Source: an uncultured bacterium (GTDB lineage: Bacteria > Verrucomicrobiota > Kiritimatiellia > CAIKKV01). From it: a stretch of 64,000 bases of DNA. A program made the position numbers and the translations under genes. Location of the stretch: contig CALHRZ010000010.1 in assembly GCA_938038445.1 (NCBI GenBank), forward strand, positions 16,757 through 80,756. The letters are read 5' to 3'. Shown piece by piece: positions 33,206 through 50,993 of this stretch. Position 1 is the first letter of the stretch, and every line of letters begins with the position of its first letter. The notes under the pieces were generated by a model. That model saw only the letters and a list, made by a program, of their open reading frames with translations, was not told where the DNA came from and did no database searches.

Positions 33206-33494
33206 GAACCGTTTGCCGTTGGCGAATGAATGCCTTGGAAATTAAAATTCGGTTTTCGCCTGAGCCGCCATGAAGGGCGGCACAGAATGGTCCTCCCTCC
33301 AACGGGGGGCGTTTTCCTCTTTGGGGTCGCTTTTATGCGATTAGCCATTACGCTGGAAATCTTGGGGGGATGCCCGAGATGTTCAATTTAGGCAAAGTGA
33401 GAAAATCATATTATGATGTGATAGGGAGGGATTGTTTGGTTGTACTTTCTGCGCGATGTTTCCGTCAGGTTCGTATTAGTAGGGGAGGTGTCCT

Positions 33495-35333: not shown

Positions 35334-35386
35334 TGCCTCCCGCGCATCATGGGCTCGGGGACATGGGTTCCCCCCATATCAAGGCG

Positions 35387-36262
35387 TTAGCGATGGATGC
35401 TTTTGCGGTACAAGCCAGGCCGCCATCCGGTTTGTCGAAGGAACGCCTGCGAAAAATTGTATGCGTTGCTGTAGCCCACGAGCACCGCAATCGTATCCAG
35501 CTTCTCATGGGAGGTTCTCAGCAGCTCGGCAGCTTTTGCCATTCGAACGCTGCGGATGAGGCAGGCGGGAGGCTGACCATACAATCGGCGGACGGTTCGG
35601 TGGAGATGTCCGACGGACATGTTGAGCGTGTGCGCTAGCATGGGAACGGACCATGGTTGTTCGGGCTGCGCGGCGATGTTATCCAACACGCATGCCATCT
35701 TTTTGCGGAAGTTCCGATCGAAAAAGGATTCGTGAGCACCAAGATGCCGCCGAAGAAAGTGGAAAATAGCGTTGCAGAGGGCGGCGCATGCTTCCCCGGA
35801 GTCCGGGTGTTGTTGCAGGGGCTCGCGGATTAGGACCTCTGTCGCGACCCGAAGCAGTTCCGAATGGGGAAACGGATGGACTTCCACCTGTTGGGGGAGC
35901 GCGAGGTTTTTGCGCAGAGTTCCGTCCGGTAGAAGGTGAATCCAAAGGACGGTCGCAGAACAGCGATGGGTTTCCACTCGCTTCGGAGAATTTTCGGGCA
36001 GTAGCAGGGCTTCCCCTCGTTTGACTAGTATTGGGGGCGCCTTATCGCGTGGGTAGTAGATACGGCCTGCTGCCACGATAAAGATCAGGTAGAGGGAGGT
36101 TTCGCCCCAGCTTTGCCGCGGGGGTCGTTTATCCATTCCCATCATCCGGACCCCCAACTCGCGCAGAGGACGCATGATGGGAATGTCGGATGTCACCCCG
36201 ACGATTCGTGTGAGGTCGTTCAATGGGGGGCGGTGAAAGTCCTTTGACGGATGGGAAGGCAC
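35387..36262 (-). CDS. AraC-family transcriptional regulator
   Basis: The C-terminal HTH_AraC signature is present (HLHRTVRRLYGQPPACLIRSVRMAKAAELL...GYSNAYNFSQAF). Confidence 0.75.
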   Translation of the reverse strand: MPSHPSKDFHRPPLNDLTRIVGVTSDIPIMRPLRELGVRMMGMDKRPPRQSWGETSLYLIFIVAAGRIYYPRDKAPPILVKRGEALLLPENSPKRVETHRCSATVLWIHLLPDGTLRKNLALPQQVEVHPFPHSELLRVATEVLIREPLQQHPDSGEACAALCNAIFHFLRRHLGAHESFFDRNFRKKMACVLDNIAAQPEQPWSVPMLAHTLNMSVGHLHRTVRRLYGQPPACLIRSVRMAKAAELLRTSHEKLDTIAVLVGYSNAYNFSQAFLRQTGWRPGLYRKSIHR

Positions 36263-36376: not shown

Positions 36377-36466
36377 CTTATCGCGGGGTAATCCAACCTT
36401 TTTCGTGTTTTGTCCAGGTTTGGATTGAGAAGGACGAGGGGTTTTGCTAAAAAACAGATCTTAGGG

Positions 36467-37780
36467 ATGCGGAAGATTCGTCCAGCCTGGGGTGTGGCCT
36501 TACTGGCTTTCGCGGTTGCGTATAGTATGACCCGCCCCGTGTCCTTGCGGCGGGCTGCCTTGCGGCCACCCCATGAGCCGGACTTGAGTCGGGTGCCTCC
36601 TTCGGTCGCTCTGGTGACCGTCCTATTGGGTGGGTTCCGGGGTTTGGCGGCCGATCTTCTTTGGTTCCGCGCCACGTCGCTTCAAGACGAGGGGCGTTTT
36701 CTGGAAATTGCGCAGTTGGCCGACTGGATTACGCGACTCGAGCCGACCCTTCCGGAGGTTTGGTCCTATCACGCATGGAATATGGCCTATAATATCAGTG
36801 TTCTTTTTCCGAACCCTTTGGACCGCTGGCGGTGGATTTGCAACGGCCGCCGGATTCTTCAGGAGGACGCCATTCGGTTCAATCCCGCCTCGCCCCGGCT
36901 TTATGCAGAATTAAGTTGGCTTTACTATCATAAAATCGGCGGGTATTCCGATCCGGCGTCTGATCATTATCTGGCGTTTTTTTTTCAGGAAGTCGAAGAG
37001 GTGTTACCGGGGGGCAGGATGGAAGGGATCCCGCCTGCGCACCTTTCCCGATTCTTGGAAGTCTTTCGGATAGGGGGGGAGACCGCTCGATTGATGACGG
37101 ATCGTTGGGGGGAAATGGATTGGCGGTTACCGGAAACTCATGCGCTGTATTGGGCGTTGGAAGGCACACAGGCGGCTGGCGAGGCGCCGGACATTCGCGC
37201 GGACCGCCTTCTTTACTTGACCTTGATGGCTTGCTTTTTCCGGGGGCGGATTGCGCTACCCCGGCCAGGCCAATCGCCGATACGGGGGCTTCGACCGGAA
37301 CTGGCTGGGGCCGTTTTGGAGGCTTTGGAAGAAATCGCTCTTCGCCATCCAGACCCGGCATACCGATGGGGGGAGATCATCGCCTATTTCAACAAACGTG
37401 CCGCGTTTTATCTGTATTGTTACGGCCATGACGAGTTGGCGGAGCTTTATTTTGAACGGGCCCGAAGGGCGGGGGCGGCGACCGAAGCAACGCTCTACGA
37501 GATGGCTGTTCGCGCAGCGGAGGAAGCCACAATGGCGGGTGCGGATTACTGGGACCAGACGATGGCGCTTTTTTATGAAGCGGCGCGACGGCGTTTGGGG
37601 GGAGACGAAAAGGGAGGGGCGCGCTGTGCCGAAATGGGGCGTCGTTTTTACGAAGGGGTCAGGGCTCGGCTGGTTGTGATGGGAGTGGATTCGCTTCCGT
37701 CGGCCGATGCCTTGCGAATGGAAGGAGAACGACTGGCCTGTCTGGAGAAGAACGGCGAGGGGGAGGGGGAGGATCCGTGA
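36467..37780 (+). CDS. Hypothetical polytopic membrane protein
   Basis: The track ORF starts with a TTG at 36410. The ATG at 36467 (MRKIRPAWGVALLAFAVA...) is more plausible. No confident family assignment was made. Its 3' end overlaps the apbE start (GTGA). Confidence 0.35.
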   Translation: MRKIRPAWGVALLAFAVAYSMTRPVSLRRAALRPPHEPDLSRVPPSVALVTVLLGGFRGLAADLLWFRATSLQDEGRFLEIAQLADWITRLEPTLPEVWSYHAWNMAYNISVLFPNPLDRWRWICNGRRILQEDAIRFNPASPRLYAELSWLYYHKIGGYSDPASDHYLAFFFQEVEEVLPGGRMEGIPPAHLSRFLEVFRIGGETARLMTDRWGEMDWRLPETHALYWALEGTQAAGEAPDIRADRLLYLTLMACFFRGRIALPRPGQSPIRGLRPELAGAVLEALEEIALRHPDPAYRWGEIIAYFNKRAAFYLYCYGHDELAELYFERARRAGAATEATLYEMAVRAAEEATMAGADYWDQTMALFYEAARRRLGGDEKGGARCAEMGRRFYEGVRARLVVMGVDSLPSADALRMEGERLACLEKNGEGEGEDP

Positions 37781-38808
37781 AGAGGCGCTTTTTCTTTGTT
37801 TGGATTTTATCGGCGGTTGGGCTTATGACCGGCTGTTTGCCTTCTCGACCTCGGCTTGTGGTTCGCGAATATCCGGGCATGGGGACCTTGGGCAGTGTGA
37901 CGGCGTTGTCGGACGAGGAGGCTTTTTCGTGGGCAGCCCGGTGCGCTCAGATCACGCGGGAATGGGAAGAGCGGCTCAGTGTTTTTCTTCCGAATTCCGA
38001 CTTGGCGCGGATCAATGCTGCCGCCGGCAAAGGAGTGGTGGCAATTTCTCCCGAGACACGCTGGGTACTGGAACATGCGATTCGTCTTGCCCGAGAGAGC
38101 GGAGGTGCTTTCGATCCCACGGTGGGTCCTTTAATGGATTTGTGGGGATTCCGTCGCCAGGGTTTGGCACGCAAACCCATGTTGGATGAGATTGCGGCGT
38201 CACGTGAACGGGTGGGTTATCACAAGCTTGTGATTTCAACGGAAGGCTGTGGGTTGGAACGGGAGGGGATGGCATTGGATTTAGGGGGGATTGGCAAAGG
38301 GGTTGCGGTGGACCGCTGCTGGGAAGAGTTACGAAGGGAAGCCAAAGGGCGGCCGTTTCTGGTCAATCTGGGAGGCAACATTCGCGCGTCGGGACGTTTG
38401 CCGACGGGGCGGGAGTGGTCCATCGGCATCCGGGATCCGTTCGATCCTGGCCGGATTGTCGCCACGATTTCGTTGGAAGATGGAAAAGCGGTGGCGACCT
38501 CGGGTCACTACGAACGGTTTGTGGTGCTGGACGGAGAGCGCTGGGCACACATTATGGATCCCCGGACGGGTATGCCGGTGCGGGGGATGGCTTCTGTGAC
38601 GGTAGTGGCCGACAGTGCGGAGGATGCCGATGGTCTCTCAACCACGCTTTTTGTGATGGGGCGTGAGGAAGGAGAGGCATTTCTGCGACAGACGGGAAGA
38701 AATGCTGCTGTTTTGTACATTCCTGACCAGAAGCCTCTTCATCTGTTTCCCAACGCTTCCATGAAAAAAATCATAAAAATTGACAGCCGCGATCCTAGCC
38801 TATTATAA
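37777..38808 (+). CDS. apbE: FAD:protein FMN transferase ApbE (lipoprotein)
   Basis: The GTG start has a GGAGGA RBS. A lipobox-like LMTGC is present. ApbE motifs match (AFDPTVGPLMDLWGF; DLGGIGKGVAVD; TSGHYERF). Confidence 0.75.
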   Translation: MKRRFFFVWILSAVGLMTGCLPSRPRLVVREYPGMGTLGSVTALSDEEAFSWAARCAQITREWEERLSVFLPNSDLARINAAAGKGVVAISPETRWVLEHAIRLARESGGAFDPTVGPLMDLWGFRRQGLARKPMLDEIAASRERVGYHKLVISTEGCGLEREGMALDLGGIGKGVAVDRCWEELRREAKGRPFLVNLGGNIRASGRLPTGREWSIGIRDPFDPGRIVATISLEDGKAVATSGHYERFVVLDGERWAHIMDPRTGMPVRGMASVTVVADSAEDADGLSTTLFVMGREEGEAFLRQTGRNAAVLYIPDQKPLHLFPNASMKKIIKIDSRDPSLL

Positions 38809-38873
38809 TGTAACTATGTTTTTGGTTTGCGTGTGAATACTATTTAGACAAACACGCAGATACGGAGGGTGCC

Positions 38874-41800
38874 ATGACATTTCGATGCTGTTCGGGTAGG
38901 TTGTTCCAGCTTTTGGGCGTTCTTTGCAGTTTTTTTCTTTCTGAAGTGGGATGGGGGCAGACGTGGACGTTCAATGTGCCCGAACGGGTAGTGGAAACCG
39001 GCACGAATTGGTTGACGGGTGCCGGTGTGGTCAGTAAAACGGGGATTGGAACCCTCTGGCTGATTCCGACAGGGGCCACCAACGTCTATACGGGACCGAC
39101 CTATGTTTTGGATGGGGTTCTGAGGGCCGACGAGGGGCGAGGCTTGCCGTTTGCGTCCACCTTATATCTCAACGGTCAGAATGTTGCAACTCGGTCAACA
39201 GGGGTTTTGGAAACCCGTGGAACGTTTTCCCGGGATGTGGGAACCGCGGCAGGGCAAGTTTATTGGAACGGGACTTATGGCGGATTTGCCGCACGTGGGG
39301 GTGATCTTATTGTGACTCTGAACGGTGGGGCTCCGTTGCTTTGGGGCGCAGCCAACGGCTTTAATGCGAAAAGTCTTTCCTTGAGCAGCCTGACCGCGGA
39401 CGGAGCGGTCGAGATTCGGAATGACATCGGATTGGGGGCAAACCGGGCTGTTTTCATCGAGCTGAATACGAATAATGCGAACAATTTAGCGGTTCTTTCG
39501 GGTGTGATCAGCAATGGTGCTGCAAGCGCGTTCGGACTGACCGTAAATGGTCGTGGCACCTTGTGGTTGCGTAACACCAATACATTTACGGGTGCGCTCA
39601 CTTTTGGCGGGGGGACAGTGCGCGCAGTGGATGGCGTGGGGCTTCCAACGACGGCACTGGTGACATTCAACAATACGGCTACGCATGGGATACTGGAATC
39701 CTCCGGCTCATTTACTCGAACGATTGGGAGTGGGGCGGGGCAAATTTCATGGCAATCGTCGAGTGTCGGAGGAGGATTTGCAGCGTGGGGAGGGCCGTTG
39801 AATGTGAGTCTTAACGGGGGTGGGGTCATCAATTGGGCGAGCGGCACGGATGGTTTTAATGGGCGGGTTCTGGTGTTGAACAGTTTTACCGCGAACGACC
39901 GAGTCATCCTTGAAAATTCGATCGAACTTGGGGCGGCTCGCACCATTTATGTTTATGACAATCCTTTTTCTGAGAATGATGCCGCCGAGATCCGTGGTGA
40001 ACTTCGGGGAAATAATACAGGCTATAACCTTACTAAAAGCGGGCCAGGGATCTTGGAGTTGAGTGGGTTTAATTCTTATCGTGGCAATACATTTGTTGGG
40101 GAGGGAACACTGCGGGTTAATGGGACAATTGCGAGCAACAACTATATTCAGGTGAATGTTCCGGCCATGCTGAGCGGGACGGGTCGAGTGATCAGTGTCG
40201 CTGCGAATGGTCTTTTGAATTATGGGACCGTATCGCCCCAGGATGGGACAGCGGCGGGCGTTTTACGGTACACGGGGCATGGGACGCTCTATACCAACTC
40301 TCGTTTGGAGGTGGTGCTGGGACCTGGGACCCAGGTGGGGCGATTGGAGATCAGTGGGAACGTGACGATTCAAACCAACTTTATCGTGCGGTTTCGGGAT
40401 TTTGGGGGTTCATGCAAAGCAGAGGATGAGTTAACGGTTTTGACGTATGGGACCAATTGCATGTCATTTCCGACGAACAGCTGGTCTTTCGACGCCTCGC
40501 TGGTGCAACATTCAGGGCGGTGGAATTGGACGAATGCGGTGTTGGTGCACGATCCGGCGGGCAAGCGGGTTTATGTGACCGGTTTGCGGGTGGATCCGCA
40601 GACTCCGAGCACATGGGTGACTTGGAATGGAGGGGCGGGAAATTGGACGGACTGGAACTGGGATGGCCCTGAGCCGGTTCCGACCATCGAGACGGAGGCT
40701 TTGGTGCTTTCCTCCGATTCCGATATTCAGGTCACGGGGGAGCAAGAAGCCCATACGCTGACGCTTTCCAATGGGGTGGTGCAAATTGAATCGGGTGGTG
40801 AGTTGGAAAGCTATTATGTGGAGATAGGGGGTGGGGAACTGAATGTGGAGGGAGTGCTCAAAGGGTTTGAGCGGGTTCGGGTGGCTCCGGCGGGTTCCTT
40901 GCGAATTTCGGGTACGCTGCAAGGGGCCGATTTGATCATCGAAGGGACGAATGTATTGGAATCGGGCGCAGACCTACGGGTGAGGCAATGGGTGTTTGGG
41001 GCGGATCAGACGCTGGGAAGCAATGTGTCCATCGCCGCCGATCGTGTAAGCGTTCCGCCTGCTCTGTTTTTGGAATCGGGCAGTGTGCTCAGTGCGGGGA
41101 CGTGGAGTGTAAAGGGGAATGTGGATGTGGCAGCGAGCGCGCAGGTGGCGGGGCAAGTTCGGCTGGCTACGGATGGGGATATGACCATTCACGGGGAGGC
41201 GGCATCGGGTGCTGTTATAGTGATGGATGGGGGCACGTTGCGCGCTTCGGAAGCGACCAGGGTGGGCGGATTGGATTTTACCTTGGGTGGTGTTTTGATC
41301 CGGGATGGGGCAACGGATCCGTTGCAAGTGGCAGGTCCGTTGATTGTACAGGGGGTTAATTTGGATTTGGATGGGTTGAAGCTGGACACATCAGAGGCTG
41401 CCATTGTGGCGACGAATGGGTATTGGCTGAGTACGACCGGGGATTTAAATGCGGCTTCGCTCCGAATGGTCGGTCCTATGCTCCGTGTGGGAGGAATGGT
41501 TTCGATCAGCAACGTGCTGTCCCTGGAAGATGTGACGATCACCAATCCGATCACAGGAGACACGATGGTTCTGGTGGGTGAAGGGCGCACACGGGATCAA
41601 CTTGTTTGGTTGGCCGCCTCCAACTCATTTCGGGGTAAAGTTCAGATTGAGCGGGGTACTTTGAGAGCCATTCCGGGAATCGGGTTGCCTGATGATCCAG
41701 GTGCTGGGGCATTTGATTTTTCCGCCGATACTGCCGGATGGCATGCTCTCTTGGAAGGCAACGGGGTTTTTGCCCGTTCCATTGGTGAGGGGAGCGGCGA

Positions 41801-44800
41801 TGTGTTTTGGAGTGGACATGGGGGGTTTGCGGCCTGGGGGGGAGATTTGGATGTGACGCTAAGGGGTGGAGATTTGATCACATGGGGAGCCACGAATGGA
41901 TTTCGCGGTTTCAACCTTTATTTGAGCAGCACGTCCGCTACGCATGTCGTAACGCTTCACAATCCCCTATTGGTCAATGGCACACATATTTTGCGGGTTT
42001 TTGACAATCCGTTCACCAACTCCGATTATGCGCGAATTACCGGTACGATTTCCATGGATACAGCGGGGCGGATCTTACAAAAAGCCGAACCGGGCATGGT
42101 CTGGCTGACGGGAACGAACACGTTTGGGGGCCGATTGCAAATTGATGATGGGGTTGTGCGAGCGATCGACGGGGCAGGACTTCCCGCTTCCGCCACTCTC
42201 TATCTGAACGGATCACTGCCAGGGACTCGCGCGTGTGGCGTGTTGGAGAGCAGCGGGGTGTTTGCCCGTAATATTGGGACAGGCGCAGGTCAAGTCTATT
42301 GGAATAATGCCGGAGGTTTTTCGGCTTTTGGTGGGCCGTTGGAGGTCCTTCTGAACGGTGGCGCAACCATCAGCTGGGGCGCAGCCAATGGATTTAATTC
42401 CAAGATCCTTGTCTCGGGCGGTCCGACCGCCGATGAAGTCGTGACGCTAGTCAATCCGGTCGATTTGGGGGCAAATCGTTCCATCTATGTCTGGGACAAT
42501 ACGAACTCACCGTCTGATGCGTTCAAGATGGCGGGAACCCTTGCCAACGGGGGTGCAGGCCATTTTGGGATTTGGAAATATGGGGATGGTGTCCTTTGGG
42601 TGACGGGAACCAACACCTTTACCGGAGGGATCACGAACTTCAACGGCGTTGTCCGTTTTGGGGACGGCATTGGGATTTCCGCCTCCGCATCGATGCGGCT
42701 AAGCGGCGGCAATATCACGCCCTGTGTGTTTGAGACGAGTGGAACACTGACGCGGAACCTGGGCACCGAAGCCGGGCAGATCCACTGGGGAGGGAGCGGC
42801 GGTTTTGCGGCATGGGGCGGGGATCTCGACTTGGTGTTCCATGGCGGTTCGAATATTGTCTGGTCCGCGCTTTCGGGCGGATTCAACGGCCAAGTTTTGC
42901 ATTTGGGATCGCGAACGGCGAACGGACGAGTGGATCTTAAAAACGACATCGCGCTCAATGGGCACCGAACCATTTATGTGTGGGACAATCCATTCTCCAC
43001 CAGCGATTATGCCCGCATTTCCGGAACGATTTCGAACGGTCCTACAGCCGGTTCGCAATTTCTTCGGTACGGTGATGGGTTGCTGGAACTGACGGCGACC
43101 AATAGTTACACGGGGCAGACTTCTCTCTATGACGGTGATACCCGCGTGATGGGAGTTATTTCGGGACCGGTGGTAGTGGCCGTAAACCACACGAATGGGC
43201 CTCGTACGATCCTTTCGGGTATAGGACGCGTGGGTAACCTCACCGTGCAGGCCAATGGCATTGTGGCGCCGGGGGCGGGGGGTGTCGGCACCCTGACGGT
43301 GAACGGAAATGCGACAATTCAACGCGGTGCGGCCTTGGAGTGGGAGATTGGGTTGGACCAACAGTCTGATCGAATCCATATCATATCGAACGTCACCTTT
43401 AATGCGGAATGGGTTCTTCGGGTTCGGGATGGTGGAGGCTGTCCGACGAAGGAGGATCGGTATCCGGTGGTGACGTTTGGCGGTTTTCTGGCCAGCAACA
43501 CCACAACGGTATTGGATTTTTCGCTCTTGGATGAGGAGGTATGGGATGTTTCGGAGGCGCGCGTTTATTACGATCCGACCAACAAGCAGGTCGGGATCAC
43601 GGGATTGGGATACACGGGACCGCGGGTGCTGGTATCGGATGCAACCGTTGCCGAGACGGATTCGGGCGAAGTGGAGTTGGTCTTTGATGTGACGCTTTTT
43701 GATGGGTTTATGGGAGATGTGGACCTTTACTTTGCGACAGCCGATGGGACAGCGGAGGCCGGCAGTGATTACACGGCGACGTCCGGGGTGGTGACCCTGA
43801 CGATGGATTGGCCGAGCACAACGATCGTTGTAAAAGTTCAGGGGGACACGGTTCCGGAATGGCCGAGCGAATATTTCCTGTTGAGTCTCGCCGTGACCGG
43901 GGGAAACGCGCGGTTGGTGCGTTCGACGGCGGTTGGGAAAATTGCGGATGATGATGGAAGCGCGCGCTACAAGATGCCGATCGTGTTGAGCGGTTACACC
44001 GGAACAGAGACCTTGATCAACTTTCCGGCCCTTGTTACGTTCCGTGAGGGGGATGGGGGTTTCAGTTACGGGCAAATGGGGCACACAAACGGGTGGGACT
44101 TGCGGTTTCTCAATGCGGAAGAGACCGAGGAGTTGGCATACGAAATCGAGCAGTGGAATCGGGCCGGAACCTCGTATGTTTGGGTTCGGATTCCCCGATT
44201 GAGCGGCACGAACACCCTGATCTGGGCGGTATGGGGTGATGCGACGGTGACCGAACCGCCGGTGTATAGCACGAATGGAACAGTATGGTCCGAAGGGTTT
44301 GTGACGGTCCATCATTTCACACCCCCCGTTGGAGGGCTTTATCGGGATTCGGGGCCAAGAAATTTCCATGGCGTCAATGAAGGAGGCCGGATGGCATCCG
44401 GTGCAATCGGGGTCGGTTTGGATCTCAATGGGCCGACCAACAACGTCAACATGACCGGAGTGGCGTCCTCTGAACAAAGCTTCACGTTCGAGATGTGGGT
44501 TCGCACTCCCAGTTTAGTTTTGAACCGTTATTTATTTGATGCATTGAACGGCCGCCATCTGATTGCCATTAACTATCCCACCGTGGGAACGATTGCATAT
44601 TATGATGGCACATGGCGGTATTTCCCAGGGGCTCAGGGGTTGAACAATGGCGAGTGGAACCACGTGGTCGTGGTGGTTGATCGTGACGCCGGCCGTTCTG
44701 CTGTATATCTCAACGGCGAATTTGTGGGCACGAATACCTATAATCCCCGCGTGCTGGGTGGACAGGCGAGGATTGGGTCCCAATACAATGCGCCGGCAAC

Positions 44801-47800
44801 CCAGCATTATGATGGGCAGATGGATGAATTTCGCATTTCGGATCGTGCGCGTTCCGCCGATTGGATACGGGCGAACAGTCAGACCCAGAGCCGACCGGAT
44901 GAATTTGCCCGTAAAGGGAATGTCTTCACGGCTCGGGGGGGTGCGCTTGCGGAGGGGGTGTTAGCCGTGGGCAACCGTGCGGCCACCGGCGTACGCGACG
45001 GTAAGGCGACACTGAATGGAATCTTGGTTGGAACAGGCGGGGAAGCGACGGCGGGTTTGATGGTTTGCTGGGGGACGGCCGATGGGGGTACGGGGGCGAC
45101 GGGGGATTGGGAATATGCCGCTTCGCTGGGGACGGGGATTGAGCCTGCGTCATGGGTATCCTTTGAAGTTGACGGGTTGACGCCGGGTCAAAGTTATGCG
45201 TATCGGTTTTTTGCCACCAACGCAGCGGGTGAGGCGTGGGCGTCTCCGGCCGAATGGTTTGTGGTGCCTCGGGGGTGGTATGTGGCCACGACGGGTGATG
45301 GGAGCGACGGACAGAGTTGGGCCACGGCCTATACGAATATTCAGCAGGCGCTGGATGCGGCGCAACCGGGAGATGAAATCTTTCTCAAAGGGGAGCGGTT
45401 CAATATATGCAGTGATCCGACAGAAAACAACCAGCTCCTTGTCACCACGCCCAATCTCCGGATTCGCGGTGGGTACGAGGGGGTGGGGACGCCCGGGGCG
45501 AATGATCCTTCCGTATGGGTCACCATTATCACGCGCAGTGCGGGAACCAACCGGTTGATGCTCATTGATGGTGCCGACAATGTGGAGCTGTATGGACTGA
45601 TGTTTACCAATGGGTTACCCCGTGCACGTGCCAACCCTGTTCATCCTGATTCGAGTGGGGCGGGTCTCTTTATCCGAAATGCGAACGGAATCCGGATCGA
45701 ACGATGCGTCTTTCAACAGAATTGGGGCTACGGTCCGTTTGTGAACGGCGGCTATGTCTATGGCGGTGGAATTTGCGCCGTGACCTCCCGGTTGGAAATC
45801 GTTGCGAGTCGGTTTGTTTCGAACCGCGTCACCAGTTTGAGCTCGGCAAATATCCAGAATGGTTCTGGCGGCGGCATTGCCGTTGTGGATGGCGAATTGA
45901 CCATCGAGGATTCTGAAATTCTTGACAACTGGGTGGCTGGGGATTACCTGCATGGTTATGTGGATGGGGGAGGGCTTTCGATTCGGGGACTTTTTACAGC
46001 TCGGCGTGTTGTCGTGGCGCGAAACGATGTCGGAGAACCGTCGAATGATGCACGCCAATTCGGGGATGGAATTTACCTCTGGGGTGCAGGGAAGATTGAG
46101 AATGGGCTTTTCTTCAGGAATGGGCAATTCGCTCCGGGCACATCGGGAACATCGAACTTTGCGGTATATGTGGCCGGCGGGTATCTGACGATGGATCGGT
46201 GCACGGTAACCGATCACAAGCAGGCGGGTCTCTATCGAATCGGGGGGTCGGTTGTTATTTCCAATAGCATATTCTGGAACAACAACTTCTTGGATATATA
46301 CGAAAATGTGGCCGGAAACGTCATTCCCTTCTACACGCTGACCCAGCAGGGCTTTTACGATGGAGTTAATGGATGTTTTTCAGCGAATCCGTTGTTTGCC
46401 GATACCAACACCTTCCATCTGAAATCCGCCTATGGGACCTATACGGGGGGTTGGTTCAGCGGAGGCACGTGGGAGAATGCCGATGCGAACAGCCCGGCGA
46501 TTGATGCGGGCGATCCTTTATTCCGGGCCGACTTGGAGCCGTTCCCGAACGGGGGGCGGTTAAACTTGGGCGCATATGGCGGAACGATGGTAGCCTCCAA
46601 ATCGCCTCCGATTGCCGTCAGCAATGAACCGGCTTCGGGGGTGTCGCCGACGATGGCTCGGTTGAATGGGCGAATTGTGTCGGTGGGAGGCTACGGGACG
46701 GAAGCATGGTTTCTGTGGGATACAGAGGATCGAGGTGGCGATGTGGGGGCGTGGTCGAATCGTACCTTTGTTTCCACCTATGATGCGGCGGGTCCAGTGA
46801 CGTTGTTCTTGACGGGGCTAACACCGGAGACGGTTTATTATTATCGCTTGATGGCCACGAATTCGGCCGGTGGGTATGCTCTTGCCGAACCGTCCGAAAG
46901 CTTTGAAACCGTTCTTTCGAAACCTGAAGTGGCAAATCGAGGGGTGGAAAACGAAGCGGGCCCCACCGTGGTTTTGAAAGGCGAGGTGGTATTGACAGGT
47001 GGGGAAGACCCTGGGGTTTACGTCGTATGGGGTGAGGTTCCTGGTGGAAAGGCAACTGGGAGCTGGGAAAACGTGGTTTATGCCGGTTTTCAGGGAGGAA
47101 CGTTCAGCGTCGAGGTCGCGACGGCACCGGGACGCAGCTATTATTACACCTGTTATGCGACGAACAGTGGGGGAGAGGATTGGGCGTGGCCTCCCATTCA
47201 TTTTGGAGTCTCCAACTTATTCTATGTGTCAGCCGATGCGGTGGGAGAAGGCACAGGTCAGGGGTGGGTCAATGCTTTCAGCAACCTGCAAGATGCGCTC
47301 AATGCGGTGCTCTCGGACAAACCCACGGAAATCTATATCAAAGGAGGCGGCGGCAAGGAGCTGCAAGCGGCTGCGGAAGTCGGGTGGAATCGGTCCAACG
47401 TGCGGATTCTGGGCGGTTATGAAGGGGTAGGCTGGCCTGGGAATCGTGATCCGGAGGTTTGGCCGACCGTTTTGACTCGTCGCCCTGCCAACTTCATTCG
47501 GATCCTTTCGATACAGGGTGTTACGAACGGCTTACTGGATGGCGTGACCATACGCCATGGCAATCTGGCCGATTTCGGGGGTGGGATTCGGATTGTGAAT
47601 TCGACGAATCTAACGATTGCAAACTGCCGGATCGAGCGGAACAAGGGAGAGAATGCGACGGGAGGAACGACGGGGGGTGGCGGGGTGTATGCGGTCGATT
47701 CGTTCGGGGTGATTACGAACTGTTTGTTTGAGCGTAACGCGGTGACCAACACGGCTGGAGGCGGGTTTGCGTTGGGCGGCGGATTGATGATTTCGAATGG

Positions 47801-49619
47801 GCAGTGGACGATCCGCGACAGTCAGTTTATCTACAATACGGTGAATGCCAGCGGAAGCGGCTCGCGTGGGCGTGGTGCGGGCGTATATATTCATGGCGGC
47901 CAGCATGCGATCCGAAACTGCCTCTTTACCCAGAACTATCCTGCCGGAGCGGTGGATCAAGCGACGATGGCGCAAGGCGGGGCAGCCTACTTGACCAATA
48001 CCGTTGTTGCGTTCGATTACGTGACGGTGGCCGGCAATGTGCATGAGGGAATTCATGGCGCACAATTTGCCGAAATCCGGCATTCGATCCTGTGGCACAA
48101 TGGGAAAGACCTTGTCGGAACGCCGGGCGTATTGGCATACAACTCCATCAGTGACGGGGATGGGGTGGGGACCAATGGAAACGTGGTGACGGATCCTCGG
48201 TTTGAATATGGGTTCTATCTTGGTGATGGGAGTGGGTGTCGGGATGCGGCTTCGGAGACCGCTGCAGCGGCTGGGTTGGGCGGGATGTCGACCCGAGCGG
48301 ATGGGGCTTTGGATGAGGGTATGGCGGATCTTGGGTATCATGCGGCGCGTGGGATTGGGCCTTGGCACACTCTCTATGTGGCGACGGACGGCAATGACGC
48401 AAATGCCGGAACGAATTCTGCGGCCCCCTTGCGATCGCTGACAAGGGCTCTTGAAAAGGCGCTGATGGGGACGCGCGTCCTTGTTGCCGAGGGGCTCTAT
48501 GACAAAACGGTGGAAACATTCCCACTGATTGTGGACAAGGCGGGAATTCAACTTCTCGGTACGAATTTCGAAACCACAATTGTTTCCGCTTTGAATGCCA
48601 CGAGCCGGGTATTTCACGTCTTTGAGGCTCCGTGGGTTGTGTTGAGGGGAATGACCATAAGGGATGGCGTTCAGACGACTTATCGGTACTATCAGCAGGG
48701 CGGTGGGTTGTGGATTCGTCATTCGACTGATCTGCTGTTGGATCGCTGCGGGGTCGTCAACAATCTCAATCAGGGCGCAGTCAACGAGAATCGTTATGGG
48801 GGCGGTATCTATGCAGAAAATGCGGCGTTTGCTCGGGCGATCAACACTCGTTTTGTCAGCAACACCGTGTTTGCGAGTGCCGGACTATGGTCTGGTCTTG
48901 GGCATGGTGGGGGATTATACTTGTTGCGGGGAAGCTGGACCTTCGAGCGGTGTGTCTTTTCGGGCAATCTGGCCCGTGGGTACAATAATGAAGGTGCCTT
49001 GGGAGGCGCGGTGGCCATCTTGGGGGGAACCCATGAGTTTCGCAATTCCTTGATCGTCTCCAACAGTCTCGAATCCCGGGGTTATGGAGGGGATGGCGTG
49101 TATTCCCAGAACGCGACCACCCGCGTGGTAAACTGCACGGTTGCGGACAATGGGTGGCATCCGACGAAACCTGCGGGCTATTTTCGCGATGGATTGAGGC
49201 AAGTCGGAACGGGATACTTTGAAGTGCGCAACAGCATTGTGTATGGAAATCAGACGAACGATTTGGCGGGATTCACCACGAATGAGGTGGGCGAGTTGAT
49301 TAATGTTTACTACACGTGCATCGGAGACGGCCAAAACAACGGCGTGCAAGGATGCTTCCAGGCTGATCCGTTGTTTGCGGACCGTATTCATTATCATGAG
49401 CTATCCCGGAAAGGCTATTACAGCGGGGGCTTCTGGACAGGTGGGGAATGGCTCCTGGGCGGGGAAACAAGCTCTTGCATTGATGCGGGGGATCCCAATG
49501 ACGCGTATGAACATGAACCGGAACCCAACGGGAAGCGGATCAATCTCGGCGCATATGGCAACACGGAGACCGCCAGCAAGACGGCACGGCCGGGAGGAAC
49601 ACTCATCATTGTTCGGTAA
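38874..49619 (+). CDS. Giant (3581 aa) secreted multidomain surface/adhesin-like protein: PATR (autotransporter-associated beta-strand) repeats, Calx-beta, DUF2341-LamG, FN3 modules and three PbH1 beta-helix modules with choice-of-anchor-Q-like caps
   Basis: It has a signal peptide and a strong RBS (GGAGGG). Repeated GTLWL...NTFTG...GGTVRA units occupy the N-terminal ~1400 aa. The Calx-beta signature is VSDATVAETDSGEVELVFDVTL...DYTATSG. The LamG region is GEWNHVVVVVDRDAGRSAVYLNGEF. The repeated caps are DAGDP...NGGRLNLGAYGGT and CIDAGDPNDAYEHEPEPNGKRINLGAYGNT. Confidence 0.7.
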   Translation: MTFRCCSGRLFQLLGVLCSFFLSEVGWGQTWTFNVPERVVETGTNWLTGAGVVSKTGIGTLWLIPTGATNVYTGPTYVLDGVLRADEGRGLPFASTLYLNGQNVATRSTGVLETRGTFSRDVGTAAGQVYWNGTYGGFAARGGDLIVTLNGGAPLLWGAANGFNAKSLSLSSLTADGAVEIRNDIGLGANRAVFIELNTNNANNLAVLSGVISNGAASAFGLTVNGRGTLWLRNTNTFTGALTFGGGTVRAVDGVGLPTTALVTFNNTATHGILESSGSFTRTIGSGAGQISWQSSSVGGGFAAWGGPLNVSLNGGGVINWASGTDGFNGRVLVLNSFTANDRVILENSIELGAARTIYVYDNPFSENDAAEIRGELRGNNTGYNLTKSGPGILELSGFNSYRGNTFVGEGTLRVNGTIASNNYIQVNVPAMLSGTGRVISVAANGLLNYGTVSPQDGTAAGVLRYTGHGTLYTNSRLEVVLGPGTQVGRLEISGNVTIQTNFIVRFRDFGGSCKAEDELTVLTYGTNCMSFPTNSWSFDASLVQHSGRWNWTNAVLVHDPAGKRVYVTGLRVDPQTPSTWVTWNGGAGNWTDWNWDGPEPVPTIETEALVLSSDSDIQVTGEQEAHTLTLSNGVVQIESGGELESYYVEIGGGELNVEGVLKGFERVRVAPAGSLRISGTLQGADLIIEGTNVLESGADLRVRQWVFGADQTLGSNVSIAADRVSVPPALFLESGSVLSAGTWSVKGNVDVAASAQVAGQVRLATDGDMTIHGEAASGAVIVMDGGTLRASEATRVGGLDFTLGGVLIRDGATDPLQVAGPLIVQGVNLDLDGLKLDTSEAAIVATNGYWLSTTGDLNAASLRMVGPMLRVGGMVSISNVLSLEDVTITNPITGDTMVLVGEGRTRDQLVWLAASNSFRGKVQIERGTLRAIPGIGLPDDPGAGAFDFSADTAGWHALLEGNGVFARSIGEGSGDVFWSGHGGFAAWGGDLDVTLRGGDLITWGATNGFRGFNLYLSSTSATHVVTLHNPLLVNGTHILRVFDNPFTNSDYARITGTISMDTAGRILQKAEPGMVWLTGTNTFGGRLQIDDGVVRAIDGAGLPASATLYLNGSLPGTRACGVLESSGVFARNIGTGAGQVYWNNAGGFSAFGGPLEVLLNGGATISWGAANGFNSKILVSGGPTADEVVTLVNPVDLGANRSIYVWDNTNSPSDAFKMAGTLANGGAGHFGIWKYGDGVLWVTGTNTFTGGITNFNGVVRFGDGIGISASASMRLSGGNITPCVFETSGTLTRNLGTEAGQIHWGGSGGFAAWGGDLDLVFHGGSNIVWSALSGGFNGQVLHLGSRTANGRVDLKNDIALNGHRTIYVWDNPFSTSDYARISGTISNGPTAGSQFLRYGDGLLELTATNSYTGQTSLYDGDTRVMGVISGPVVVAVNHTNGPRTILSGIGRVGNLTVQANGIVAPGAGGVGTLTVNGNATIQRGAALEWEIGLDQQSDRIHIISNVTFNAEWVLRVRDGGGCPTKEDRYPVVTFGGFLASNTTTVLDFSLLDEEVWDVSEARVYYDPTNKQVGITGLGYTGPRVLVSDATVAETDSGEVELVFDVTLFDGFMGDVDLYFATADGTAEAGSDYTATSGVVTLTMDWPSTTIVVKVQGDTVPEWPSEYFLLSLAVTGGNARLVRSTAVGKIADDDGSARYKMPIVLSGYTGTETLINFPALVTFREGDGGFSYGQMGHTNGWDLRFLNAEETEELAYEIEQWNRAGTSYVWVRIPRLSGTNTLIWAVWGDATVTEPPVYSTNGTVWSEGFVTVHHFTPPVGGLYRDSGPRNFHGVNEGGRMASGAIGVGLDLNGPTNNVNMTGVASSEQSFTFEMWVRTPSLVLNRYLFDALNGRHLIAINYPTVGTIAYYDGTWRYFPGAQGLNNGEWNHVVVVVDRDAGRSAVYLNGEFVGTNTYNPRVLGGQARIGSQYNAPATQHYDGQMDEFRISDRARSADWIRANSQTQSRPDEFARKGNVFTARGGALAEGVLAVGNRAATGVRDGKATLNGILVGTGGEATAGLMVCWGTADGGTGATGDWEYAASLGTGIEPASWVSFEVDGLTPGQSYAYRFFATNAAGEAWASPAEWFVVPRGWYVATTGDGSDGQSWATAYTNIQQALDAAQPGDEIFLKGERFNICSDPTENNQLLVTTPNLRIRGGYEGVGTPGANDPSVWVTIITRSAGTNRLMLIDGADNVELYGLMFTNGLPRARANPVHPDSSGAGLFIRNANGIRIERCVFQQNWGYGPFVNGGYVYGGGICAVTSRLEIVASRFVSNRVTSLSSANIQNGSGGGIAVVDGELTIEDSEILDNWVAGDYLHGYVDGGGLSIRGLFTARRVVVARNDVGEPSNDARQFGDGIYLWGAGKIENGLFFRNGQFAPGTSGTSNFAVYVAGGYLTMDRCTVTDHKQAGLYRIGGSVVISNSIFWNNNFLDIYENVAGNVIPFYTLTQQGFYDGVNGCFSANPLFADTNTFHLKSAYGTYTGGWFSGGTWENADANSPAIDAGDPLFRADLEPFPNGGRLNLGAYGGTMVASKSPPIAVSNEPASGVSPTMARLNGRIVSVGGYGTEAWFLWDTEDRGGDVGAWSNRTFVSTYDAAGPVTLFLTGLTPETVYYYRLMATNSAGGYALAEPSESFETVLSKPEVANRGVENEAGPTVVLKGEVVLTGGEDPGVYVVWGEVPGGKATGSWENVVYAGFQGGTFSVEVATAPGRSYYYTCYATNSGGEDWAWPPIHFGVSNLFYVSADAVGEGTGQGWVNAFSNLQDALNAVLSDKPTEIYIKGGGGKELQAAAEVGWNRSNVRILGGYEGVGWPGNRDPEVWPTVLTRRPANFIRILSIQGVTNGLLDGVTIRHGNLADFGGGIRIVNSTNLTIANCRIERNKGENATGGTTGGGGVYAVDSFGVITNCLFERNAVTNTAGGGFALGGGLMISNGQWTIRDSQFIYNTVNASGSGSRGRGAGVYIHGGQHAIRNCLFTQNYPAGAVDQATMAQGGAAYLTNTVVAFDYVTVAGNVHEGIHGAQFAEIRHSILWHNGKDLVGTPGVLAYNSISDGDGVGTNGNVVTDPRFEYGFYLGDGSGCRDAASETAAAAGLGGMSTRADGALDEGMADLGYHAARGIGPWHTLYVATDGNDANAGTNSAAPLRSLTRALEKALMGTRVLVAEGLYDKTVETFPLIVDKAGIQLLGTNFETTIVSALNATSRVFHVFEAPWVVLRGMTIRDGVQTTYRYYQQGGGLWIRHSTDLLLDRCGVVNNLNQGAVNENRYGGGIYAENAAFARAINTRFVSNTVFASAGLWSGLGHGGGLYLLRGSWTFERCVFSGNLARGYNNEGALGGAVAILGGTHEFRNSLIVSNSLESRGYGGDGVYSQNATTRVVNCTVADNGWHPTKPAGYFRDGLRQVGTGYFEVRNSIVYGNQTNDLAGFTTNEVGELINVYYTCIGDGQNNGVQGCFQADPLFADRIHYHELSRKGYYSGGFWTGGEWLLGGETSSCIDAGDPNDAYEHEPEPNGKRINLGAYGNTETASKTARPGGTLIIVR

Positions 49620-49622
49620 ATC

Positions 49623-50993
49623 ATGAGAAAAATCGCACGGCTCAATCAGGAATGGAAAAAAATCTCCAAAGTTATTCAGGCATGGGAAGGGGCGATCGAC
49701 CCTCTTTTCATGACCCCTACGGAGGAATTTAAACGCCGGCAGACGGCTGTTTGGAAATCATTGGAGCAAGGGGGATACGACGCCGGGTTTGTCTTTTCGG
49801 ACGAACATTACTGCGGCGACGTGCCGTATCTGGGAGGCAATACCAATATTTCCATTGAGCAAGTAGCGGGGCTGATCGGGTCGACGGGTTTTCATTTGAT
49901 TGCCGGTTTGGAAGGGGGATATGTCGCCGAACAGCTTGCCTACCGTTCCGGTTGCACGGTTCATAAGGCCGAGCTGTTGCAACTTGCCGACGAAAAATAT
50001 CCCGTTGCAGCGGAAAAGTTGGGCGATATTTTGCAAGCGGCGGCCGGAAAACCGTTGCCAGCGATACGGAAGATTGGGTTGCTATCGCCCCGGCAGGTGA
50101 TTCCGTCCAGTCTCATCGAGCATTTGCATCATCTCCTCGGGCCGGAGCGTGTCGAGGATGCGCAGGAGCGGTATTTTCGGATCAAATACGAAAAATCGGA
50201 TGTTGAGATGCGATTGATCGCCGATGCCTGCAAGGTGGCCGATGCCATGATGCGGGGAATGTTGGCGGTTTTGAGGCCGGGCATGTTGGAAACGGAGGTC
50301 GCGGCCTGGGCGTCATTCCTAGGGAAAGCATTGGGCTGTGAGGATTGCGGCTTTAAGGTCATGGTGGGGGCCAATGAAGCGAACCGGACTCTGATTGGGA
50401 AGGCCCTTAATCGCCCGATTCAGAAAGGGGATTGGGTCCATTTGGGCGTGGCGCCGACGAGAGACGGGCTCAACTCGTGCATTCGCCGGTCGGTTATTGC
50501 GGTCGAATCGCCGGAAGAGGTCACATCGGATCAACGATATTGGTTCCGGTTCATCGAGCAAGCCTATCGCGTGGGGCATCGAAAATATGTGGAAGTGGCA
50601 AAAAACAATCTACCGGCCAGGCTTCAAGAGCAAGCGCTGGTGGATTTTTTTGCGTCGAAAGCGGAGGAAGTTTCCCGGCGGGTGGGAAAACCTATTCCCC
50701 TCGCGCAACTGAAGCCGTATACGGGAACCCACAATGCGGGGTATACGGAATGCCAGGAGTTTTTTGGCGCCATCACCTTGGAGTCCGAAGAGCCGCTTGG
50801 CCGTCAGATTGTCACCATGTTGGATGTCGCACTTCGGGGGTTTGGAAGCAAGTGGCATGAGGTGGTCATTCCGGGTTTTGACTACATCGTCATTGAAAAC
50901 ACGTTGGGGAAATACGATTCGACGATCAAAACCCTCACCCAGATGCCGTTGAACGTGCAGCGGTTGGTGGGGAATGTGGACGAATTGAAATAG
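49623..50993 (+). CDS. Hypothetical protein (possible creatinase/M24-peptidase-like fold), co-transcribed with the giant gene
   Basis: It starts 3 nt after the giant gene stop. The weak resemblance to Xaa-Pro aminopeptidase/creatinase architecture is not a confident assignment. Confidence 0.3.
   Translation: MRKIARLNQEWKKISKVIQAWEGAIDPLFMTPTEEFKRRQTAVWKSLEQGGYDAGFVFSDEHYCGDVPYLGGNTNISIEQVAGLIGSTGFHLIAGLEGGYVAEQLAYRSGCTVHKAELLQLADEKYPVAAEKLGDILQAAAGKPLPAIRKIGLLSPRQVIPSSLIEHLHHLLGPERVEDAQERYFRIKYEKSDVEMRLIADACKVADAMMRGMLAVLRPGMLETEVAAWASFLGKALGCEDCGFKVMVGANEANRTLIGKALNRPIQKGDWVHLGVAPTRDGLNSCIRRSVIAVESPEEVTSDQRYWFRFIEQAYRVGHRKYVEVAKNNLPARLQEQALVDFFASKAEEVSRRVGKPIPLAQLKPYTGTHNAGYTECQEFFGAITLESEEPLGRQIVTMLDVALRGFGSKWHEVVIPGFDYIVIENTLGKYDSTIKTLTQMPLNVQRLVGNVDELK

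What the first reader, a model, noticed from the sequence alone, without database searches (positions are those of the whole stretch)
38874..49619. 3581-aa modular giant: PATR array plus Calx-beta, LamG, FN3 and three capped beta-helix modules, co-transcribed with ApbE and an M24-like protein
It is the largest gene (10.7 kb) in the window and sits between apbE (64 nt upstream) and a creatinase-like gene (3 nt downstream). It combines adhesion-type modules (PATR, Calx-beta, FN3, LamG) with three pectate-lyase-like PbH1 beta-helices, each followed by a CIDAGDP…LGAYG cap. This suggests a polysaccharide-binding or -degrading cell-surface megaprotein.
Basis: partly seen in the sequence, partly recalled or inferred. 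Interest (0 to 1): 0.5.

Follow-up and report, generated by a model that had tools for sequence, protein, structure and literature searches.

The report
Giant modular secreted surface protein
This is a real, conserved 3581-residue secreted protein of an uncultured Kiritimatiellia-type bacterium, built from common adhesion-type and beta-helix building blocks; it most likely acts as a surface fibre that binds glycans or particles rather than as a proven polysaccharide-cutting enzyme.

The parts
38780..38809 (+). Perfect sigma-70 consensus promoter, TTGACA-18 nt-TATAAT. It overlaps the apbE stop codon.
   Evidence: 12/12 matches; the only match in 64 kb, and 0 of 100 shuffles gave one. It is not evident in the ortholog's intergenic region.
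38864..38869 (+). Shine-Dalgarno GGAGGG, 4 nt before the ATG at 38874.
   Evidence: The ortholog has AGGAGG at the same place.
38874..38957 (+). Sec-type signal peptide, aa 1-28 (MTFRCCSGRLFQLLGVLCSFFLSEVGWG|QT).
   Evidence: Read from the sequence. The ortholog keeps an n-h-c signal peptide despite only 40% identity. No predictor was run.
38958..40598 (+). PATR beta-solenoid block A, aa 29-575: two ~165-aa super-repeats plus a ~180-aa terminal module.
   Evidence: Pfam PATR E 2.4e-16. TIGR02601. PDB 8e7f autotransporter passenger E 6e-7. Self-similarity.
40599..41573 (+). Lineage-specific middle region, aa 576-900. It starts with the W-x-G-G-x-G-N-W-x-D-W-N-W motif.
   Evidence: No Pfam family and no homologs found. 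It is the least conserved part versus the ortholog (59%, dN/dS 0.2). The solenoid reading is inferred from the sequence pattern only.
41574..43613 (+). PATR beta-solenoid block B, aa 901-1580: three ~165-aa super-repeats plus a terminal module paralogous to that of block A.
43614..43973 (+). Calx-beta domain, aa 1581-1700.
   Evidence: Pfam E 1e-9, above cutoff.
43974..44948 (+). DUF2341 plus LamG_3 (concanavalin-A-like lectin fold), aa 1701-2025. Together with the next FN3 it forms a cassette that recurs in relatives.
   Evidence: Pfam. Cassette in P0001-P0008, P0027 and P0043. Foldseek to the carbohydrate-binding domain 4 of AbnA and to pentraxins.
44949..45278 (+). FN3-like beta-sandwich 1, aa 2026-2135.
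   Evidence: Pfam fn3 / Pur_ac_phosph_N hits are sub-threshold. AF2 gives 7-8 strands at pLDDT ~85. Ig/FN3 Foldseek hits.
45279..46604 (+). Beta-helix module 1 (aa 2136-2480) plus cap 1 (aa 2481-2577, AIDAGDP...LNLGAYG).
   Evidence: Pfam Beta_helix E 1e-8. Paralog alignment. Cap 1 is the best conserved part versus the ortholog (84.5%).
46605..47228 (+). FN3-like beta-sandwiches 2 and 3, aa 2578-2785.
   Evidence: Self-similarity to FN3-like 1. Sub-threshold Pfam hits.
47229..48368 (+). Beta-helix module 2 with a degenerate cap, aa 2786-3165.
   Evidence: Pfam Beta_helix E 5e-11. Alignment.
48369..49580 (+). Beta-helix module 3 (DUF1565 N-cap, aa 3166-3489) plus cap 3 (aa 3490-3569, CIDAGDP...INLGAYGNT..ASK).
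49581..49619 (+). C-terminal tail, aa 3570-3581 (...ARPGGTLIIVR), plus the stop codon. Candidate sorting or retention tag.
   Evidence: Same tail type on the window ORFs 33495-35333 and 58468-60561, encoded with different codons. Conserved in the ortholog P0288 (GGTLIIIR). Also present on LamG-, PATR- and beta-helix-terminated proteins of relatives.
36410..38808 (+). Upstream conserved pair: unk456 (36410-37780, no family) and ApbE (37777-38808). Syntenic backbone, not a demonstrated functional partner.
49623..50993 (+). Downstream M24-family (prolidase-like) gene. It starts 3 nt after the giant's stop and has no Shine-Dalgarno sequence of its own.
   Evidence: It is 63-78% identical across many phyla and lies directly after ApbE in L002.

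Best explanation
The gene encodes a Sec-exported, extracellular or cell-surface fibre protein of an uncultured Kiritimatiellia-type (PVC group) bacterium. It looks like a fusion of cassettes that also exist as separate secreted proteins in related organisms.

Proposed parts and roles:
- Two PATR beta-solenoid bodies, about 1550 aa together, form a long rigid shaft.
- A Calx-beta plus DUF2341-LamG lectin-fold unit and FN3-like spacers follow.
- Three right-handed beta-helix heads follow. Each has a regular GGGxY / CxIxxN rung pattern like polymorphic-membrane-protein repeats, and each ends in a conserved cap.

Proposed mechanism (inferred): after signal-peptide cleavage the protein crosses the outer membrane by an unidentified route. 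It stays on or near the cell through its short C-terminal G-T-hydrophobic(4)-R tail. It binds glycans or particles multivalently through the LamG unit and the beta-helix faces.

What is shown: the domain architecture, the fold of module 3, conservation and purifying selection, absence of the gene from the otherwise syntenic block in L002, and the shared tail. What is inferred: surface location, the role of the tail, and binding rather than catalysis.
For: - The ORF and its domains are confirmed.
- The signal peptide is conserved in the ortholog.
- The full-length ortholog P0288 is 72.2% identical over 3573 aligned positions with about 12 gap positions. pN is 0.19 against a saturated pS of 0.73.
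- The cassettes occur as stand-alone or differently combined secreted proteins. Beta-helix-cap-tail proteins of 300-740 aa. DUF2341-LamG-FN3 and Calx proteins of 1400-3000 aa, often in tandem gene arrays. The cap is present in 6215 representative proteins, up to 13 copies in ~6000-aa proteins.
- Module 3 is a high-confidence right-handed beta-helix.
- The helix body conserves only ladder residues and no charged ones.
- The window paralog 33495-35333 hits Chlam_PMP at E 3e-28.
- The LamG part matches carbohydrate-binding and lectin domains.
- The tail is independent of the domain before it and is conserved at protein level, not DNA level.
- Homologs elsewhere carry dockerin, T9SS CTD or FlgD-Ig modules at the same position.
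- The tail is not packed in the AF2 model: pLDDT ~70 and no strand.
Against: - There is no direct evidence for localisation, ligand or secretion route.
- The best structural neighbours of module 3 are enzymes (PL9, PL6, GH and epimerases), so catalysis cannot be excluded.
- The MAFFT alignment of repetitive rungs may blur a real active site.
- The giant itself does not reach Pfam Chlam_PMP at E<=1.
- The tail could simply be a structural terminal strand.
- No machinery that recognises the tail was identified.
Confidence: 0.5

Rival explanations
1. One or more of the three beta-helix modules is an active polysaccharide lyase or hydrolase. The protein would then be a cell-surface depolymerase, with the LamG, Calx and FN3 parts acting as carbohydrate-binding and spacer modules.
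For: - The family profile hits PL6 alginate lyase at E 1e-14 and 5olq at 8e-6.
- The cap weakly matches Pfam Disaggr_assoc (E 0.039; E 1.8e-6 for the paralog), a family named after the Methanosarcina disaggregatase.
- A relative's beta-helix-cap gene lies next to an alpha-L-fucosidase.
- Cultured Kiritimatiellales are polysaccharide degraders (established knowledge).
Against: - No PL or GH Pfam or NCBIfam family hits any module.
- Module 3 alone has no significant PDB sequence hit.
- No charged residue is conserved in the helix body among 49 homologs or among the four window paralogs.
- Most solved beta-helices are enzymes, so fold hits are biased towards them.
Confidence: 0.25
2. It is a structural envelope or cell-cell contact protein: an S-layer or sheath component, or an adhesin for attachment to other cells such as algae, cyanobacteria or prey. 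It would not be a glycan-capture device.
For: - The long beta-solenoid shaft and the PMP-like rungs are typical of adhesins.
- Giant proteins are generally linked to cell-surface adhesion (bioRxiv 10.1101/2023.11.21.568195).
- Constraint is strong across the whole length.
Against: - Nothing specific points to a cellular rather than a polysaccharide target.
- There are lectin-fold domains and PL-fold heads.
- The gene is absent from the compared locus in L002, which argues against an essential envelope role.
Confidence: 0.15
3. It is a type V autotransporter or Pmp-type adhesin that exports itself through a C-terminal beta-barrel.
For: PATR repeats (Pfam, TIGR02601) and a match to an autotransporter passenger in PDB 8e7f. 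PMP-like rungs in the beta-helix modules.
Against: There is no autotransporter beta-barrel domain anywhere. The C-terminus is a beta-helix cap plus a 12-residue tail.
Confidence: 0.03
4. It forms a functional operon with ApbE and the M24 protein, for example as an extracytoplasmic flavinylated redox protein or as a substrate of the peptidase.
For: Same strand with short gaps: 65 nt and 3 nt. The order unk456-ApbE-giant is conserved in L082. There is one D-G-G-T-G-A-T motif at aa 2070-2076.
Against: - L002 has unk456-ApbE-M24 contiguous with no giant gene.
- The M24 gene is 63-78% identical across many phyla in unrelated contexts.
- The motif reads TGST in the ortholog, and about 0.4 occurrences are expected by chance (my own estimate from residue frequencies).
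- The giant has its own consensus promoter.
Confidence: 0.03

Closest known systems
PATR-containing proteins ('autotransporter-associated beta strand repeat-containing proteins', Pfam PF12951 / TIGR02601)
   Same: The N-terminal ~1550 aa consist of the same ~165-aa super-repeats carrying PATR motifs, behind a signal peptide. The giant is large and secreted. One search shows a 2322-aa PATR protein next to related cassette genes.
   Different: There is no autotransporter barrel. Two complete PATR bodies are fused in tandem and then fused to lectin-type and beta-helix cassettes.
Stand-alone DUF1565 / Beta_helix / Disaggr_assoc secreted proteins (300-740 aa), and the multi-module giants with up to 13 capped beta-helices
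   Same: Modules 1-3 and the window paralog 33495-35333 belong to this family at 26-40% identity. They share the GGGxY / CxIxxN rungs and the DP-LF...SPCIDAGDP...EPxPNGxRINLGAYGNT..AS cap. Many members end in the same tail.
   Different: Here only three modules are present, and they are combined with PATR, Calx, DUF2341-LamG and FN3 parts. The family has no characterised member that I could find.
PL9 pectate lyase Pel9A (PDB 1ru4) and PL9 rhamnogalacturonan lyase (5olq)
   Different: Identity is only 17%. There is no sequence-family match. No conserved acidic cluster or Lys is detectable in the family. This is a resemblance of fold, not membership.
Chlamydial polymorphic membrane proteins (Pmp; Pfam Chlam_PMP)
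   Same: The repetitive GG[AG][ILV] / [FC]xxN beta-helix rungs. The adjacent paralog hits Chlam_PMP at E 3e-28, as do several homologs. Pmps are adhesins (established knowledge).
   Different: The giant itself does not reach the Pfam model at E<=1. It has no autotransporter barrel.
Rhombotarget A (RbtA, PDB 9cdu), a GlyGly-CTERM protein
   Different: The tags differ: GlyGly-CTERM with a transmembrane helix, against a 7-8-residue G-T-hydrophobic-R tail. RbtA has a single module.

Membership tests
Type V autotransporter / Pmp adhesin | C-terminal beta-barrel translocator domain (Pfam Autotransporter PF03797 or equivalent) | tested here: not met
   No such hit in whole-protein or per-segment Pfam scans. 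The C-terminal 422 aa fold as a beta-helix plus cap.
Type V autotransporter / Pmp adhesin | Passenger with PATR or PMP repeats behind a signal peptide | tested here: met
   PATR E 1.3e-17 and TIGR02601 E 1.3e-20. The signal peptide was read from the sequence. Chlam_PMP itself is met only by the paralog 33495-35333, not by the giant.
PL9 pectate / rhamnogalacturonan lyase | Right-handed parallel beta-helix fold similar to Pel9A | tested here: met
PL9 pectate / rhamnogalacturonan lyase | Sequence-family membership | tested here: not met
   No PL Pfam family at E<=1. Module 3 alone has no significant PDB hit. The family profile reaches 5olq only at 8e-6, behind PL6 and RbtA. dbCAN/CAZy was not available.
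PL9 pectate / rhamnogalacturonan lyase | Ca2+-binding Asp cluster plus catalytic Lys on the helix face (Pel9A D209/D233/D234/D237 and K273, recalled from memory) | tested here: inconclusive
   No conserved acidic or basic column in the helix body in A1 or A3. No residue-level structural superposition could be made.
Pfam Beta_helix (PF13229) / DUF1565 (PF07602) | Score above the gathering cutoff | tested here: met
   Beta_helix 52.7 bits against a cutoff of 25.9. DUF1565 35.3-39 bits against 20.3.
LamG_3 / DUF2341 / Calx-beta | Score above the gathering cutoff | tested here: met
   72.8 against 27.6, 26.5-30.2 against 23.4, and 35.3-38.9 against 27 bits. The LamG fold is supported by Foldseek.
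Fibronectin type III | Pfam fn3 above cutoff, or an FN3 beta-sandwich fold | tested here: inconclusive
   fn3 scores 15-18 bits against a cutoff of 25. AF2 predicts a 7-8-strand sandwich at pLDDT ~85, and Foldseek hits Ig/FN3 chains.
RTX / T1SS giant adhesins (LapA, SiiE type) | RTX nonapeptide repeats and a C-terminal T1SS signal, with no N-terminal Sec signal | tested here: not met
   No HemolysinCabind hit. A Sec-type signal peptide is present.
T9SS cargo / cellulosomal protein | C-terminal Por_Secre_tail (PF18962) or dockerin (PF00404) | tested here: not met
   Absent from the giant. Present at the equivalent position in homologs from other lineages.
ApbE flavinylation substrate | Conserved Dxx[ST]GA[ST] motif in an FMN-binding domain | tested here: not met
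   A single chance-level motif at aa 2070-2076 inside an FN3-like loop. It reads TGST in the ortholog.
Disaggregatase-related (PF08480) | Score above the gathering cutoff | tested here: not met
   Cap 3 scores 14.3 bits against a cutoff of 22.6. The paralog 33495-35333 does pass, at 28.5 bits.

The most novel reading that the evidence does not exclude
The C-terminal tail (consensus P/G-G-T followed by four or five hydrophobic residues and a terminal Arg, less often His, Gln or Lys) may be a previously undescribed C-terminal sorting or retention signal of Kiritimatiellia- and Lentisphaeria-type bacteria.

Evidence that fits this reading:
- It sits on large secreted proteins with unrelated C-terminal domains: beta-helix cap, LamG and PATR.
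- It occupies the position where homologs in other phyla carry dockerin, T9SS CTD or FlgD-Ig modules.
- It is conserved at protein level but not at DNA level.
- It matches no NCBIfam model.
- Three full-text literature searches found no description of it.

If this is right, the giant would be one cargo of an unknown surface-display system.
Probability: 0.3. Interest if true: 0.6.

Novelty: new member of a known kind. Interest (0 to 1): 0.33.

Why it matters
Kiritimatiellia and their relatives are abundant but mostly uncultured degraders of complex glycans, and how they hold on to substrates is poorly known. This protein is a clean, conserved example of how these bacteria build very large surface proteins by fusing a small set of cassettes: the PATR shaft, the DUF2341-LamG-FN3 unit and the capped beta-helix.

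The capped beta-helix family is very large, with more than 6000 representative clusters and up to 13 copies per protein. I found no characterised member. The shared C-terminal tail gives a concrete, testable handle on an unknown secretion or anchoring route in the PVC group.

The protein itself is not surprising for this lineage.

Tried and rejected
- Whole-protein homolog search timed out.
- The word-indexed protein database returned no self-hit and no protein longer than ~1740 aa. It probably lacks very long proteins, so 'no close homolog' there means nothing. The ortholog came instead from the metagenome scan and the representative search.
- Middle region, aa 560-920: no Pfam family and no homolog.
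- ApbE-substrate idea: the motif is at chance level and not conserved.
- Conserved operon with ApbE and M24: rejected by synteny in L002 and L004.
- Autotransporter: no barrel.
- The tail as a DNA-level repeat or terminator remnant: rejected, because the codons and the downstream DNA differ.
- NCBIfam scan of tails and the cap at E<=10: no relevant model, only one spurious SppA hit.
- Literature searches for the tail and for Kiritimatiellia surface proteins: nothing relevant. The rhombotarget papers show that the RbtA peptide complex is a designed binder, so they say nothing about function.
- Module 3 alone against PDB sequences: only noise.
- The afdb50 fold library was unavailable.
- The consensus promoter is not recognisably conserved in the ortholog's intergenic region, so it remains suggestive only.
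- Taxon names for tail-bearing proteins: only 'Kiritimatiellae/Kiritimatiellia bacterium' was recovered.
Full report
**Observation**

The window holds one uninterrupted ORF at 38874-49619 on the + strand. It starts with ATG, encodes 3581 aa and is the largest ORF in the 64 kb. A GGAGGG Shine-Dalgarno lies 4 nt upstream of the ATG.

ApbE (37777-38808, Pfam E 1e-82) ends 65 nt upstream. An M24-family gene (49623-50993) begins 3 nt after the stop. By PDB sequence search the M24 protein is nearest to Xaa-Pro dipeptidases, not creatinase.

The gene is not an assembly artefact. An independent Logan assembly (ERR9287890, locus L001) calls the identical 3581-aa product in the same context. A JGI metagenome contig (L082) and a representative protein (P0288, 3577 aa) give an ortholog that is 72.2% identical over 3573 aligned positions with about 12 gap positions. 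Non-synonymous divergence is pN 0.19 against saturated synonymous divergence of pS 0.73. That puts dN/dS at or below about 0.1 in most modules (about 0.2 in the middle region; two had saturated dS).

**Anatomy**

Self-comparison, Pfam and NCBIfam scans and two AlphaFold models give the following layout:
- aa 1-28: signal peptide.
- aa 29-575: PATR block A.
- aa 576-900: a lineage-specific, solenoid-like region with no family and no detectable homolog.
- aa 901-1580: PATR block B.
- aa 1581-1700: Calx-beta.
- aa 1701-2025: DUF2341 plus LamG_3.
- aa 2026-2135: FN3-like sandwich.
- aa 2136-2577: beta-helix 1 with cap.
- aa 2578-2785: two more FN3-like sandwiches.
- aa 2786-3165: beta-helix 2 with a degenerate cap.
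- aa 3166-3569: beta-helix 3, with a DUF1565 N-cap and an intact cap.
- aa 3570-3581: a 12-residue tail ending GGTLIIVR.

The PATR part is made of five ~165-aa super-repeats. Each of the two blocks ends in a paralogous ~180-aa terminal module, as if two complete PATR proteins had been fused.

FN3 is below the Pfam cutoff. The model supports it with 7-8 strands at pLDDT ~85, and Foldseek returns Ig/FN3 hits. The LamG part matches carbohydrate-binding domain 4 of the arabinanase AbnA, pentraxins and neurotoxin or sialidase lectin domains.

**The beta-helix modules**

At sequence level no PL or GH family is hit, and module 3 alone finds nothing in the PDB. A family profile reaches PL6 lyases, a PMP-like ciliate protein and RbtA through the generic GGG...N rungs.

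In the 49-sequence alignment the conserved positions of the helix body are only G, N, C, T and Y, forming GGGxY / CxIxxN rungs. Every conserved charged residue lies in the cap: D3498, D3503, H3508, D3537, D3540, E3548, R3555 and K3569. The four window paralogs share no invariant charged residue.

The adjacent paralog 33495-35333 is a strong Chlam_PMP match (E 3e-28).

Nothing supports an active lyase site. A repetitive, adhesin-type helix is the more economical reading.

**Family context**

The cassettes are common currency in these lineages.
- About 200 stand-alone proteins of 300-740 aa share the DUF1565, Beta_helix and cap arrangement at 26-40% identity.
- The DUF2341-LamG-FN3 and Calx-DUF2341-LamG units build 1400-3000-aa proteins, often in tandem gene arrays. 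These arrays sit next to PATR proteins and, in one case, a fucosidase.
- The cap alone is found in 6215 representative clusters (1305 at E<=1e-10). It occurs up to 13 times in ~6000-aa proteins.

So the giant is a new combination within a very large family. I could find no characterised member of that family.

**Genomic context**

The M24-like gene is 63-78% identical across Kiritimatiellia, Asgard archaea, Acidobacteriota and others. The best matches are Kiritimatiellia MAGs, which places the window in that group.
- In L002 the order is unk456-ApbE-M24 with about 100 bp between ApbE and M24 and no giant gene.
- L004 continues M24-thioesterase-PolA-AMP-ligase-AAA, as in the window.
- In L082 the order is Na/Pi transporter-unk456-ApbE-giant.

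The 10.7-kb gene is therefore absent from an otherwise conserved block in L002. It is shared by the window organism and the L082 lineage. L082's ApbE is 69.5% identical to the window's, against 51.6% for L002, so L082 is the closer relative. A lineage-specific insertion, or a loss in L002, would explain this.

A perfect TTGACA-18-TATAAT promoter overlaps the apbE stop. It is the only such site in the window, and none appeared in 100 shuffles. It is not recognisable in L082.

No terminator-like site separates the giant from M24, so co-transcription of those two genes is plausible.

The single flavinylation-like motif (aa 2070-2076) is at chance level (my own estimate from residue frequencies) and not conserved in the ortholog.

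**The C-terminal tail**

Three signal-peptide-bearing ORFs in the window end alike...PGGTLIIVR...PTGTLIFVR and ...APGTVIQIR. Different codons and different downstream DNA encode them.

The ortholog ends GGTLIIIR. The same tail type closes several other kinds of protein:
- beta-helix-cap proteins;
- LamG-terminated proteins (PGTLLLVR, GPTLFILR);
- PATR proteins;
- other large secreted proteins in Kiritimatiellia and Lentisphaerales loci.

Among 1510 long ORFs from 81 loci of many phyla, the strict pattern occurred only in the window and in those two groups.

After the cap, homologs do one of three things. They stop, they carry this tail (the last residue is mostly R, sometimes H, Q, K or an aromatic), or they carry a dockerin, T9SS CTD or FlgD-Ig module. 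The tail is unpacked in the model. It matches no NCBIfam model. My literature searches found no mention of it.

I read it as a candidate sorting or retention tag. This is an inference only.

**Mechanism and verdict**

The most likely reading (about 0.5) is a Sec-exported surface fibre. A PATR solenoid shaft presents lectin-type domains and beta-helix heads that bind glycans or particles multivalently. The protein is sorted or retained through the tail.

A depolymerase function for one or more helices remains a serious rival (about 0.25), because the nearest solved folds are enzymes. An autotransporter mechanism, an ApbE-linked function and an assembly artefact are effectively excluded.

It is an ordinary kind of protein for PVC bacteria: a new member of a known, uncharacterised kind. 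The shared tail is the one element that could be new.

Noticed in passing
window 49581-49616, 35298-35330 and 60535-60558; L014 1097-4801; L067 11023-13401; L088 811-18829; L090 1-5351: Large secreted proteins with unrelated last domains share a short C-terminal tail: G-T-hydrophobic(4-5)-R, for example GGTLIIVR, TGTLIFVR, PGTVIQIR, PGTLLLVR, AGTVVFIR and RGTIVTVR. Among the loci held, the strict pattern occurred only in the window and in a Kiritimatiellae and a Lentisphaerales MAG locus. No NCBIfam model matches, and the library searches found no description.
   Followed up: partly
window 49623-50993; loci L002-L081: The M24-family (prolidase-like) protein is 63-78% identical over its full length across Kiritimatiellia, Asgard archaea (Promethearchaeota, Helarchaeota), Acidobacteriota, Armatimonadota and Chloroflexota. 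That is unusually high cross-domain conservation. Pfam M24 covers only aa 198-315, and the function is unknown.
   Followed up: no
window 30620-36262, compared with L082 5830-7600: Relative to the ortholog locus L082, the window has an extra ~6.7-kb segment between the Na/Pi cotransporter and unk456. It encodes an 861-aa secreted protein with no Pfam family, the 612-aa Chlam_PMP/beta-helix paralog carrying the tail, and a divergently oriented AraC regulator. This is a second indel of surface-protein genes in the same neighbourhood.
   Followed up: partly
L083 13435-13441, compared with L082 15422-15427: L083 comes from the same population as L082 (99.8% identical). It has G7 instead of G6 in the ortholog, which frameshifts the gene at about aa 1822. 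This could be a sequencing error or a slipped-strand off-variant. The window has no G-run at that site, but it has G7 runs at 41836 and 44935.
   Followed up: partly
proteins P0244-P0283: A class of ~5000-6400-aa proteins carries 11-14 tandem copies of the same beta-helix cap. Most of them end in a different shared C-terminal motif, such as ...GGDFxYEDxxSTNxxxRLYRV... or ...RFYRVxV. This may be a second tail type.
   Followed up: no
window 36410-37780: A 456-aa protein with an N-terminal membrane or signal segment has no Pfam or NCBIfam family. It is conserved immediately upstream of ApbE in L002, L003 and L082 (39-69% identity). It may be a partner or substrate of ApbE, although it has no [ST]GA[ST] motif.
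   Followed up: partly
window 1-64000: GC skew is positive in every 2-kb bin (0.09-0.30). This includes bins 1-13 kb, where the long ORFs lie on the minus strand.
   Followed up: no
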